DNA of 64,000 nt. Origin: Malacoraja senta (taxonomy: Eukaryota). The DNA is taken from assembly GCA_038087875.1 (NCBI GenBank), contig CM075987.1, positions 21,888,001 to 21,952,000 of the forward strand, read 5' to 3'. A model generated the notes under the pieces. It saw only the letters and a program-made list of their open reading frames with translations, was not told where the DNA came from and made no database searches. This document shows positions 6,481-7,871 of the stretch, piece after piece (within the stretch, counting starts at the first letter, position 1; each line of letters opens with the position of its first letter). The position numbers were made by a program, and so were the translations under genes.

Positions 6481-6729
6481 AGGATAGATAAAATAACAAG
6501 CAACCAGAAGCTCCATCTGCCCGTCATCCCCTCCCCATCTGGATTCACCTATTGCTTACCAGCTTCCATCCCATCCCACTATGTAATTCTGTATACCGGC
6601 AATCTCTCCTGTTCCCTCTCATCCCTAATTCAGGGTCATCGATTTACACCTTTAGCCTCCACAGATGTTGCTTGGCCTGATGAGTTCTTCTGTAACTGTT
6701 TTAGTGACATTGATTGAGCGTTAATTATT

Positions 6730-6783
6730 GTGGTGGAAGATTGCAACCTTCATGTGGTCCGCCCTGTTTCCACGAATGCAATC
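6730..6783 (+). ncRNA. Minimal HDV-like self-cleaving ribozyme fold
   Basis: P1 GTGGTGG/CCGCCCT (G1-U wobble, one mismatch); P2 GATTGCA/TGCAATC (7 bp perfect); P3 ACC/GGT; L3 TTCATGT; J4/2 CGAA. Order matches the HDV nested double pseudoknot. Confidence 0.75.
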
Positions 6784-6870
6784 AACCCGGCGTGCACAAT
6801 CAAATAAGATCAAATAGAACAAGTTGTCCTACAACTTTAGGCTGTGCACGCCATACACGAGAAGAAGAGG
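6730..6870 (+). mobile_element. Short non-autonomous retroelement (Vingi/Ingi-type) with 5' HDV-like ribozyme and GAA tail
   Basis: TSD GTTAATTATT(G) at 6720-6730 and 6871-6881; 3' end CCATACACGAGAAGAAG; internal perfect 10-bp inverted repeat 6789-6798 / 6843-6852. Confidence 0.75.
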
Positions 6871-7871
6871 GTTAATTATTGGTCTGGACACTGAAAATAA
6901 CTCCATGAGATGCTATTTACATCTGCATAAAAGAACATTCAATGTCTCAGTGTAACACCTCATTCAAAAGGTTGGTCTTCTCAGTAGTGTATCTCAACAT
7001 TATCTTGGCTATATTTAAGAGGGAGTTAGATGTGGCCCTTGTGGCTAAAGGGATCAGGGGGTATGGAGAGAAGGCAGGTACGGGATACTGAGTTGGATGA
7101 TCAGCCATGATCATATTGAATGGTGGTGCAGGCTCGAAGGGCCGAATGGCCTACTCCTGCACCTATTTTCTATGTATCTATGTATCTAACATTATCTCAA
7201 TTATGAACTTCTATGGACTGTGCCAAAGGATATGGGGATTTTGCACTACTATTATGGATATTAATTTGTTAATTTTTTTGTTTATTATTATATATTATAT
7301 ATATATAATATATTATTTATTACCTATTATGCTGCTGCAAGTAAAAGCTTCATTGTTCCATTGCTGGTACATATGACAATTACACACTCTTGACTCTTGA
7401 CTCAAATCTCTGGAATGAAGCACAATTTCCCTAGCCTTCTGACAAGAGGAAAAAGTGCTTCTAATTACCAGCTCAGGATTCAACGGAACACAACTGACAG
7501 CAGAGGTCTTGCTCTGGAATCATACTGTCCCACCCTGTGTGTATAAAGGGACATGCTTCAATGTACAAACACTTCTCGACTTATGCAACAGGCGACTTAC
7601 ATAAACTTGCATTTACGTTAACAATTGTTAACATAATTCAGACCCTGGTGCAATCAAGACATTTTGTAATTTCCACAACACTGTACGATCACTCAAGTTT
7701 ACATTGGAAACAAGCCGGCATACCCAGAAGGCCATGCACACAGAAAGTGCCCCAACGGTGAGACAGAACTCAAGCCAGCAATGGCGGCTCTGCTTACCCA
7801 GAAGGCCGCATACCTCAGAGAGTGCCCTGGACACATCCAGATGTCGCTGAGACAATTAATACTCTCAGTGA

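What the first reader, a model, noticed from the sequence alone, without database searches (positions are those of the whole stretch)
6730..6783. 54-nt minimal HDV-like ribozyme at the exact 5' end of a tiny retroelement
Seen: P1 6730-6736/6759-6765 (G1-U wobble, one T-C mismatch), J1/2 AA, P2 GATTGCA 6739-6745 / TGCAATC 6777-6783, P3 ACC/GGT, L3 TTCATGT, one G for P1.1, P4 reduced to TTTCCA, and J4/2 CGAA with candidate catalytic C6773. The predicted cleavage site coincides with the element/TSD boundary. Known: HDV-like ribozymes process the 5' ends of R2, RTE, L1Tc/ingi and related non-LTR elements, and P4 is dispensable. Inference: this is a natural P4-less ribozyme in a chondrichthyan SINE-like element. 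L3 may be CpG-decayed from TTCACGT, so this copy may be weakened.
Basis: partly seen in the sequence, partly recalled or inferred. Interest (0 to 1): 0.85.

Follow-up and report, generated by a model that had tools for sequence, protein, structure and literature searches.

The report
Self-cutting RNA heads tiny retroelement
The flagged 54 bases are a worn copy of a hepatitis-delta-type self-cutting RNA fold that forms the first third of a 140-base jumping element, a cut-down version of a larger jumping gene that starts with the same fold; this is a new example of a known arrangement, and cutting itself has not been tested.

Summary
Observation confirmed. Window 6730-6783 fits the HDV-like double pseudoknot as described. 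A covariance model built only from ribozyme motifs of distant relatives finds exactly 6730-6783 (32 bits, E about 7e-6; next hit 11 bits).

The element (6730-6870, 11-bp target-site duplication) belongs to a family with at least 3,838 copies. It is an internally deleted derivative of a compact single-ORF LINE (endonuclease plus reverse transcriptase). Its first ~73 nt match the LINE 5' end and its last ~44 nt the LINE 3' tail.

In 32 of 42 copies with a clean duplication, the duplication ends within 1 nt of G1, the predicted cleavage site. Eight homologous 5' ends show compensatory changes in 13 of 19 pairs. The relatives have a P4 helix. This LINE and its derivative carry 6 nt instead.

The window copy has three changes from the family majority and is probably weakened. 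Self-cleavage is inferred, not shown.

HDV-like ribozymes at LINE 5' ends, internally deleted derivatives and P4-less natural variants are all in print, so this is a new member of a known kind. One related metagenomic LINE carries a 5' ribozyme that passes Rfam's CPEB3 threshold.

The parts
6720..6730 (.). Left target-site duplication GTTAATTATTG. Its last G is also G1 of the element.
   Evidence: exact 11-nt repeat of 6871-6881.
6730..6783 (+). P4-less HDV-like ribozyme fold (decayed copy); predicted cleavage 5' of G6730.
   Evidence: Model R1 match 32 bits, E 7.1e-6, exactly these ends; descriptor; family alignment.
6730..6736 (+). P1 5' strand GTGGTGG (family majority GGGGTGG). T6731 is a copy-specific mismatch.
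6739..6745 (+). P2 5' strand GATTGCA; pairs with 6777-6783.
   Evidence: 99.5% of cells paired within the family; 7 of 8 P2 pairs change on both sides among homologs.
6746..6748 (+). P3 5' strand ACC; pairs with GGT 6756-6758.
   Evidence: 2 of 3 P3 pairs covary.
6749..6755 (+). L3 TTCATGT (majority TTCACGT). C6751 pairs with G6766 (P1.1). T6749 and G6754 are invariant among the 8 homologs.
6759..6765 (+). P1 3' strand CCGCCCT. The parent LINE and an older subfamily have CCACCCT, so the pair with U5 is U-G or U-A.
   Evidence: pair 5/32 is UG in 15 and UA in 11 distinct rows.
6766..6772 (+). G6766 (P1.1 partner) plus TTTCCA in place of P4 (majority TTTCGA). C6771 allows a competing helix, GGUGGAA with UUUCCAC.
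   Evidence: the minimum-energy fold of the window copy is the alternative helix; 20 model positions of P4 replaced by 1 nt.
6773..6776 (+). J4/2 CGAA; candidate catalytic C6773. The second position varies (G, T or A) between subfamilies.
   Evidence: C44, A46 and A47 invariant in 29 of 29 rows; 6774 is G or T. C invariant in 8 of 8.
6777..6783 (+). P2 3' strand TGCAATC.
6784..6802 (+). Remainder of the segment derived from the LINE 5' UTR. It includes GGCGTGCACA 6790-6799, the 5' arm of a 10-bp stem.
   Evidence: query 8-77 matches L087 3582-3651 at 90%; derivative positions 1-73 match the LINE 5' end at 96%.
6803..6828 (+). Central ~25 nt with no match in either LINE end. It contains one arm of a small hairpin (AAGTTGT with ACAACTT).
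6829..6870 (+). Segment shared with the LINE 3' tail (CTACAACTTTAGGCTGTGCACGCC...) plus an AAG-type microsatellite end. TGTGCACGCC 6843-6852 is the 3' arm of the stem.
   Evidence: derivative positions 99-142 match the LINE 3' end at 95%; loose ends at 6829 read LINE 3' sequence.
6871..6881 (.). Right target-site duplication GTTAATTATTG.

Best explanation
Window 6730-6870 is one old insertion of a ~139-nt non-autonomous non-LTR retroelement. The element is an internal-deletion derivative (SIDE-like) of a compact, single-ORF LINE of about 3.2 kb that encodes an AP-endonuclease and a reverse transcriptase. Both the LINE and the derivative begin with the same 54-nt HDV-like double-pseudoknot fold, in which P4 is replaced by 6 nt.

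Proposed mechanism:
1. The elements have no recognisable promoter of their own and are transcribed as part of longer host transcripts (inferred).
2. The fold cleaves the RNA just 5' of G1, using the C at the first J4/2 position (inferred by homology; not assayed).
3. The LINE protein recognises the ~45-nt 3' tail with its AAG repeats and copies the RNA into a nicked target by target-primed reverse transcription (inferred from the shared tail and the 7-13-bp duplications).
4. Copying to the end of the cleaved RNA gives insertions that start at G1 (shown: the copies do start there).

The window copy differs from the family majority at three ribozyme positions and is probably a weak or dead ribozyme.
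For: Family and ends.
- A 24-mer of the 3' module has 3,838 exact matches in the genome (reversed control 0).
- Of 30 loci sampled by that 24-mer without regard to the 5' part, 26 reach the ribozyme region, 2 are LINE tails and 2 are 5'-truncated.
- Of 54 copies examined, 42 have an exact duplication of 7 nt or more. Its end lies 0 nt (18), -1 nt (9) or +1 nt (5) from G1.

Parent LINE.
- Its 3' region carries RVT_1 (E 2.4e-23).
- Homologs are ~1000-aa single ORFs with PF03372, PF14529 and PF00078 on ~3.3-kb contigs. The best is 73% identical and 1019 aa long.
- Its 5' end carries the same ribozyme about 150 nt before the endonuclease domain.

Homology of the fold.
- Among metagenomic relatives, 8 of 25 loci that include the ORF start (6 of 23 distinct) have an HDV-like motif just upstream of the ORF on the coding strand. 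In the strict scan there were 6 hits on the plus strand and 0 on the minus strand. Decoy bases at the catalytic position gave 5 hits over 6 letter-strand combinations.
- One of these motifs passes Rfam's CPEB3_ribozyme threshold (55.6 bits against a gathering score of 35).
- Across 8 homologs, 13 of 19 pairs change on both sides. 95.8% of cells are paired against 72.7% in shuffles (0 of 500 as high) and 37-47% when the partners are slid.
- T20, G25 and T26 of L3, which the descriptor did not require, are invariant.
- Model R1, built without any sequence of this genome, finds 6730-6783.

Fold and subfamilies.
- The nested minimum-energy fold of majority copies is exactly P1 plus P3.
- The three positions at which subfamilies differ lie in unpaired J1/2, in a U-A/U-G pair of P1, and at the variable second position of J4/2.

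Literature. P4 is dispensable and natural P4-less forms exist (PMC3774820 and PMC10879173, passages read).
Against: - No cleavage assay and no RNA 5'-end data. All 24 runs offered were assembled contigs, and contigs cannot show RNA ends.
- Rfam does not reach gathering score for the window. For a majority LINE copy the best match is HDV-F-prausnitzii at 17.5 bits against a gathering score of 44, E 1.3.
- Within the family there is no informative covariation: 95.7% paired against 95.6% in shuffles, with 113 of 500 shuffles as high.
- Six of the eight rows in the covariation alignment were picked by a descriptor that demands pairing. The percentage paired is therefore partly circular; the both-side changes and the strand and decoy controls carry the weight.
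- Folding energies of the 54-mers are not better than shuffles (z from -0.32 to +0.92). This is expected for a pseudoknot but gives no support.
- All relatives found have a P4, so loss of activity on losing P4 cannot be excluded by sequence alone.
- A precise 5' end is also what a fixed transcription start would give.
Confidence: 0.78

Rival explanations
1. The fold is real and inherited from a ribozyme, but the P4-less version no longer cleaves. It is kept at the 5' end because the LINE protein or the ribosome uses it (5' RNA binding, translation start). The uniform 5' end would then come from a transcription start or another processing step.
For: All six distinct relatives with a motif have a P4; only this LINE and its derivative lack it. 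Reviews say that R2 protein binds the 5' RNA and that HDV-like folds can promote translation initiation (PMC6765202, passages read). The derivative keeps about 20 nt of 5' UTR beyond the ribozyme.
Against: [quoted passage not shown] The derivative has no ORF, so a translation role cannot explain why it retains the fold. Core positions stay invariant in 29 of 29 family rows. Thousands of copies arose after P4 was lost and still start at G1.
Confidence: 0.15
2. The element is an ordinary SINE transcribed by RNA polymerase III from internal boxes, starting at G1. The ribozyme-like fold would be incidental.
For: Copies have a uniform 5' end. The stretch GTTTCGAC loosely resembles a B box; the B-box consensus is recalled and comes from no call.
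Against: No tRNA by ARAGORN. No tRNA, 5S or 7SL match at E<=10 in Rfam. The same 73 nt head a protein-coding LINE. The fold is homologous, with compensatory changes, to motifs at the 5' ends of distant LINE relatives.
Confidence: 0.04
3. Chance look-alike with no shared ancestry with HDV-like ribozymes.
For: Rfam gathering scores are not reached. Folding energy is unremarkable.
Against: 0 descriptor hits in 25 Mb of random sequence and 0 outside the family in 363 kb. The independent model hit has the exact ends. There is covariation across homologs.
Confidence: 0.01

Closest known systems
HDV-like ribozymes at the 5' ends of non-LTR retrotransposons (R2, R4, RTE, Baggins, L1Tc). Seen here in PMC6765202 and PMC3774820 (passages read). 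The primary paper, Ruminski et al. 2011, is not held.
   Same: Double-pseudoknot fold as the first bases of a promoter-less LINE. The predicted cleavage site is the element's 5' end. It lies a short distance upstream of the ORF. Insertions are dispersed and flanked by duplications.
   Different: P4 is replaced by 6 nt. The clade of this LINE was not determined: a compact single ORF fits RTE or Vingi by architecture only. No activity data exist.
SIDEs, the short internally deleted elements of R2 (Eickbush and Eickbush 2012, PMC3414825, abstract seen; also described in PMC6765202), and NARTc of L1Tc (PMC3383444, abstract seen).
   Same: A non-autonomous derivative that keeps the parent's 5' ribozyme and its 3' end, has lost the ORF, and is presumably mobilised in trans.
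   Different: Only ~139 nt long. Dispersed genome-wide with at least 3,838 copies, against about 34 detectable LINE 5' ends. About 25 central nt are of unknown origin.
Natural P4-less (minimal) HDV-like ribozymes: silkmoth R2 and an abalone example (PMC3774820, passages read); drz-Mtgn and theta ribozymes of phages (PMC10879173, passages read).
   Same: P4 is replaced by a few nucleotides while P1, P1.1, P2, P3 and the J4/2 C are retained. Total length is about 54 nt.
   Different: The setting is a dispersed LINE and its deletion derivative in a large eukaryotic genome. PMC10879173 states that nearly 99% of minimal forms were confined to phages in their survey.
Mammalian CPEB3 ribozyme (Rfam RF00622).
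   Same: The family-majority L3 (UUCACGU) and the derivative's J4/2 (CGAA) equal the RF00622 consensus as printed. A related LINE 5' ribozyme (L169) passes the RF00622 threshold.
   Different: The window and the LINE copies tested do not match RF00622 at E<=10. P1 and P2 sequences differ. CPEB3 has a P4 and is a single intronic locus.

Membership tests
HDV-like self-cleaving ribozymes | Nested double pseudoknot with the strand order P1, P2, P3, L3, P3', P1', P1.1, (P4), J4/2, P2' | tested here: met
   Descriptor hits. Pair counts: 95.7% paired within the family; 13 of 19 pairs covary among homologs. Model R1 hit. The feature is as described in PMC13635239 (passages read).
HDV-like self-cleaving ribozymes | Cleavage site directly 5' of P1, with G1 in a G-U wobble | tested here: met
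   G1-U36 in 20 of 26 distinct family rows and in the window copy (G6730/T6765). The element's 5' end lies within 1 nt of G1 in 32 of 42 copies. Only the sequence feature was tested, not cleavage.
HDV-like self-cleaving ribozymes | Catalytic cytosine at the first position of J4/2, followed by conserved A residues | tested here: met
   C44, A46 and A47 are invariant in 29 of 29 rows and in 8 of 8 homologs. In the homolog set they are partly required by the descriptor.
HDV-like self-cleaving ribozymes | P1.1 pairing between L3 and J1/4 | tested here: met
   C22-G37 in 26 of 26 distinct rows and 8 of 8 homologs. There is only one Watson-Crick pair. Non-canonical second pairs are known (PMC13635239, passages read).
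HDV-like self-cleaving ribozymes | P4 helix | tested here: not met
   6 nt (majority TTTCGA) stand in place of P4. Model R1 aligns 1 nt to 20 P4 positions. The literature treats P4 as dispensable (PMC3774820 and PMC10879173, passages read), so this does not exclude membership.
HDV-like self-cleaving ribozymes | Score at or above an Rfam gathering threshold (RF00094, RF00622, RF02682 or the drz families) | tested here: not met
   None in the window. LINE copy L096 131-184 matches RF02682 at 17.5 bits against 44, E 1.3, with ends equal to the predicted ribozyme.
HDV-like self-cleaving ribozymes | Mg2+-dependent self-cleavage abolished by changing the catalytic C to U | not testable with these tools
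Internally deleted non-autonomous derivative of a LINE (SIDE-like) | 5' end and 3' end both derived from one autonomous parent; no ORF; flanking target-site duplications | tested here: met
   Derivative positions 1-73 match the LINE 5' end (96%) and 99-142 match the LINE 3' end (95%). Duplications of 7-13 bp, apart from one 18-bp match in a microsatellite flank. About 25 central nt are unexplained.
RTE or Vingi clade of non-LTR retrotransposons | Placement by reverse-transcriptase phylogeny | not tested
   Only the architecture is known: a single ~1000-aa ORF with endonuclease and RVT_1 on about 3.2-3.3 kb and a C-terminal Cys/His motif. No named reference sequences were available.
CPEB3 ribozyme (RF00622) | Rfam gathering score of 35 bits | tested here: not met
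   No match for the window or for the LINE copies tested at E<=10. Met only by the metagenomic relative L169 (55.6 bits).

The most novel reading that the evidence does not exclude
The 5' ribozymes of this compact single-ORF LINE lineage and the mammalian CPEB3 ribozyme share one ancestry, so the CPEB3 ribozyme would be a domesticated LINE 5' end. Within that lineage, the element studied here is a naturally minimised and still active 54-nt P4-less form. Its 139-nt derivative would show the smallest set of RNA parts (ribozyme head plus ~45-nt tail) that the LINE machinery needs to copy an RNA into the genome thousands of times.
Probability: 0.3. Interest if true: 0.72.

Novelty: new member of a known kind. 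Interest (0 to 1): 0.55.

Why it matters
The family is a clean natural example of how little RNA a LINE needs to mobilise a passenger: a 54-nt self-processing head, about 20 nt of 5' UTR, and a tail of about 45 nt. Compact single-ORF LINEs (RTE, Vingi) with their 5' and 3' UTRs are now used as gene-insertion tools (PMC13708176, passages read). A derivative that outnumbers its parent's detectable 5' ends by about a hundred to one points to the UTR parts that matter.

It also places a P4-less HDV-like fold in a large eukaryotic genome. Recent surveys found minimal forms almost only in phages (PMC10879173). The CPEB3-like ribozyme on a related LINE offers a testable route to the origin of the mammalian CPEB3 ribozyme. 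My searches (and passages of PMC10919898) found no paper that links CPEB3 to a LINE 5' end. That library lacks most subscription journals.

Tried and rejected
- **Negative IUPAC patterns.** I looked for the 3' module not preceded by the ribozyme (4 hits) and the ribozyme not followed by the derivative's body (17 hits). Both gave only internal-deletion variants. The LINE was missed because it and the derivative stay alike for about 20 nt beyond the ribozyme.
- **Local blastn.** A search of the element against the window and the first 51 loci found no partial relatives.
- **Within-family covariation** is uninformative because the copies are 96% alike.
- **RNA evidence.** The look-up of sequencing runs offered only contigs. 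Read laying showed the element in contigs of three coded organisms (682, 1021 and 137 contigs laid) and one contig of an RNA library. It found no places where molecules begin or end, so nothing can be said about expression or cleavage.
- **A more distant LINE relative in this genome.** Its presumed 5' region (L108, 591 nt) has no HDV-like motif. The copy may be truncated, so nothing follows from this.
- **MAFFT alignment A4** mis-registered two rows and was not used for a model.
- **Earlier notes of this scan** held nothing on this genome or sequence.
- **Paper searches.** One search was badly framed and returned only shark anatomy papers. One search ('HDV-like' with 'shark') found 2 papers, neither on such an element.

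Full report
**The observation.** Window 6730-6783 reads GTGGTGG AA GATTGCA ACC TTCATGT GGT CCGCCCT G TTTCCA CGAA TGCAATC. The 141-nt insert is flanked by GTTAATTATTG at 6720-6730 and 6871-6881, so G6730 is shared between the duplication and the element. Rfam finds nothing at gathering score in the window and no HDV-like family at E<=10 in 6650-6950. ARAGORN finds no tRNA.

**The family.** The element is a repeat. The genome search gave 1,516 first-look candidates, of which 40 were scored at 96-100% identity. A 24-mer of its 3' part has 3,838 exact matches (1,949 plus 1,889; reversed control 0). I took 30 loci by that 24-mer, which does not condition on the 5' part. Of these, 26 reach the ribozyme region, 2 have quite different upstream sequence, and 2 are 5'-truncated.

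I then examined 54 copies: the window, 28 of the loci most similar to it, and 25 of the unbiased loci. Two pairs are segmental duplicates. Three loci (L020, L056 and L062) were dropped because an anchor motif was mutated; L056 is one of the two LINE-tail loci. In 42 copies there is an exact duplication of 7 nt or more (7-13 bp, apart from one 18-bp match in a microsatellite flank). Its end lies 0 nt (18 copies), -1 nt (9) or +1 nt (5) from G1. The other 10 lie 2-9 nt away, and 12 had no exact duplication by this method.

The first seven bases are GGGGTGG in 39 of 54 copies. This gives a perfect 7-bp P1 with a G1-U wobble. The window copy's T6731 is its own change.

**The window copy against the majority.** The family majority and contigs of three other coded organisms agree on three points:
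- C at 6753 holds 95-99% of contig depth, so the ancestral L3 is TTCACGT.
- G at 6771 holds 86-93% of depth, so the P4 replacement is TTTCGA.
- 6774 is polymorphic, G or T.

The window copy therefore differs from the majority at 6731, 6753 and 6771. Its minimum-energy fold is a competing helix (GGUGGAA with UUUCCAC) that uses C6771 and the candidate catalytic C. Majority copies fold as P1 plus P3.

**The parent LINE.** The two odd loci of the unbiased sample share only the last ~40 nt with the element. Upstream they encode the C-terminus of a LINE ORF. Longer copies carry RVT_1 (E 2.4e-23). Public homologs are ~1000-aa single ORFs with PF03372, PF14529 and PF00078 on ~3.3-kb contigs. The best is 73% identical and 1019 aa long.

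One longer copy (L087) holds, about 150 nt upstream of the endonuclease domain, a 70-nt stretch 90% identical to positions 8-77 of the window element (E 1.5e-23). A search with LINE-specific 5' UTR sequence found only 34 candidates. I fetched 20 of their 5' junctions.

Complete or nearly complete junctions begin at or within a few bases of G1 of the same fold (L096 and L098 at G1; L088 has T in its place, and L102 starts about 2 nt in, with a short duplication). They read P1 GGGGTGG with CCACCCT, J4/2 CTAA, and the same 6-nt P4 replacement.

A copy of the derivative (L078) matches the LINE 5' end over its positions 1-73 (96%) and the LINE 3' end over 99-142 (95%). About 25 central nt have no match. 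The element is therefore a short internally deleted derivative of this LINE and has no small-RNA head of the classical SINE kind.

**Is the fold more than chance?** I ran two descriptor controls.
- A strict P4-less descriptor asked for a 7-bp P1 starting with G, J1/2 of 0-4 nt, P2 of 6-8 bp, a 3-bp P3, a 7-nt L3 with C at position 3, G after P1', a 3-9-nt linker, and J4/2 of the form C-N-R-A. It found 44 start sites in 363,350 bases on both strands. All 44 are in family copies. Decoys gave A 0, G 0, T 1.
- The same descriptor found 0 sites in 25 Mb of Markov random sequence.

The descriptor was written after seeing the sequence, so these figures are an upper guide to significance.

**Homologs.** Within the family, covariation cannot be tested. 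95.7% of cells are paired against 95.6% in shuffles. The only subfamily-level changes in the 54 nt lie in J1/2, in a U-A/U-G pair of P1, and at the second position of J4/2.

I therefore fetched 75 metagenomic loci encoding relatives of the ORF (276,481 bases). A general descriptor that allows a P4 gave 6 hits on the coding strand and 0 on the other strand. Decoys gave A 1/0, G 0/1 and T 2/1 (plus/minus).

With one mismatch allowed, 8 of the 25 loci that include the ORF start have the motif just upstream of the ORF. That is 6 of 23 distinct loci, because three are one locus. All have a P4 region of 23-43 nt. One of them, L169 2188-2271, passes Rfam's CPEB3_ribozyme threshold (55.6 bits against 35, E 6.9e-13).

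I aligned the LINE copy and the derivative copy with these six. In that alignment 13 of 19 pairs change on both sides. 95.8% of cells pair, against 72.7% in shuffles (0 of 500 as high) and 37-47% when the partners are slid. The percentage paired is partly circular, since six rows were chosen by a pairing descriptor. The compensatory changes, the fixed place upstream of the ORF and the strand bias are not circular. T20, G25 and T26 of L3, which the descriptor did not demand, are invariant.

I then built a covariance model from five relatives only, modelling P2, P3 and P4. Run over the whole window with filters off, it finds exactly 6730-6783 at 32.0 bits and E 7.1e-6 (rough). The next hit scores 11.2 bits. 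A majority LINE copy gives a sub-threshold match to RF02682 whose ends equal the predicted ribozyme (17.5 bits against 44, E 1.3).

**Mechanism.**
- Shown: the fold, its homology to LINE 5' ribozyme motifs, its place as the first bases of both the LINE and the derivative, the shared 3' tail, and the duplications.
- Inferred from the known biology of ribozyme-terminated non-LTR elements (PMC6765202 and PMC3774820, passages read): co-transcription with host RNA, self-cleavage 5' of G1, recognition of the tail by the LINE protein, and target-primed reverse transcription to the cleaved end.
- Not shown: catalysis and RNA 5' ends. Only contigs were on offer.

The main rival is that the P4-less fold survives as a binding or translation module without cleaving. 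The derivative has no ORF and still keeps the fold and the G1 start, which argues against a purely translational role.

**Comparison with what is known.**
- HDV-like ribozymes at the 5' ends of R2, R4, RTE, Baggins and L1Tc, and R2 SIDEs, are established (PMC6765202; PMC3414825 abstract; PMC3774820).
- P4-less natural forms are reported for silkmoth R2 and abalone (PMC3774820) and for phage minimal and theta ribozymes (PMC10879173).
- I found no paper on such an element in cartilaginous fishes: one search returned 2 papers, neither relevant. The library is incomplete, and the organism behind this genome is not known to me.

This is therefore a new member of a known kind. Three things are notable: its small size, its copy number relative to its parent, and the loss of P4 within a lineage whose other members keep it.

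**Verdict.** Catalysis is untested, and the window copy is probably weakened. Interest is moderate.

Noticed in passing
L167 3617-3690, L168 3586-3659, L169 2199-2272 (one locus seen in three metagenome contigs, 99.8% alike): A decayed LINE relative (37% identity to the query ORF, with frameshifts) carries, about 150 nt before its endonuclease domain, a ribozyme that passes Rfam's mammalian CPEB3_ribozyme threshold (55.6 bits against 35). Its P1, P2, P3 and L3 are nearly the RF00622 consensus. This hints that the CPEB3 ribozyme comes from a LINE 5' end. The organism is unknown.
   Followed up: partly
L091, L094, L095, L096, L099-L102, L105-L107 (LINE 5' junctions): In 11 of 20 LINE 5' junction loci (10 distinct), the DNA directly upstream of the LINE start is an inverted piece of the LINE's own 3' region. 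Breakpoints differ on both sides. This is not the classical twin-priming layout. It could be template switching at the RNA 5' end, or nested antisense insertion into older copies. It remains unexplained.
   Followed up: partly
window 6790-6799 with 6843-6852; LINE copies L088-L104 and L082/L084: The 5' UTR stretch just after the ribozyme (GGCGTGCACA in the derivative, GACGTGCACA in the LINE) is complementary to TGTGCACGCC in the shared 3' tail. The match is 10 of 10 in the derivative and 9 of 10 in the LINE, built around the palindrome GTGCAC. It could bring the two RNA ends together.
   Followed up: no
window 6660-6940 laid on runs X1, X4, X6: Near-identical copies of the element occur in hundreds of contigs of three other coded organisms (682, 1021 and 137 contigs laid). 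The share of the CTAA variant differs (T at 6774 in 49%, 39% and 9% of depth). The family is thus shared among related genomes or samples.
   Followed up: no
L087 3535-3583: In this LINE copy, about 48 nt resembling another interspersed repeat (cacagtggcgcaatggtagagttgctgcc...) interrupt the ribozyme between P1 and P2, after a long G run.
   Followed up: no
window 7000-7180: A different interspersed repeat (...gggccgaatggcctactcctgcacctatt...) lies 130 nt downstream of the element. The same motif occurs in the flanks of L067 and L072.
   Followed up: no
L037 (G000:C1:355370564-355373596): One copy consists of the ribozyme plus about 16 nt, directly followed by what looks like its target-site duplication (cagcatcata). 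It is either a 3'-deleted insertion or a later deletion.
   Followed up: no
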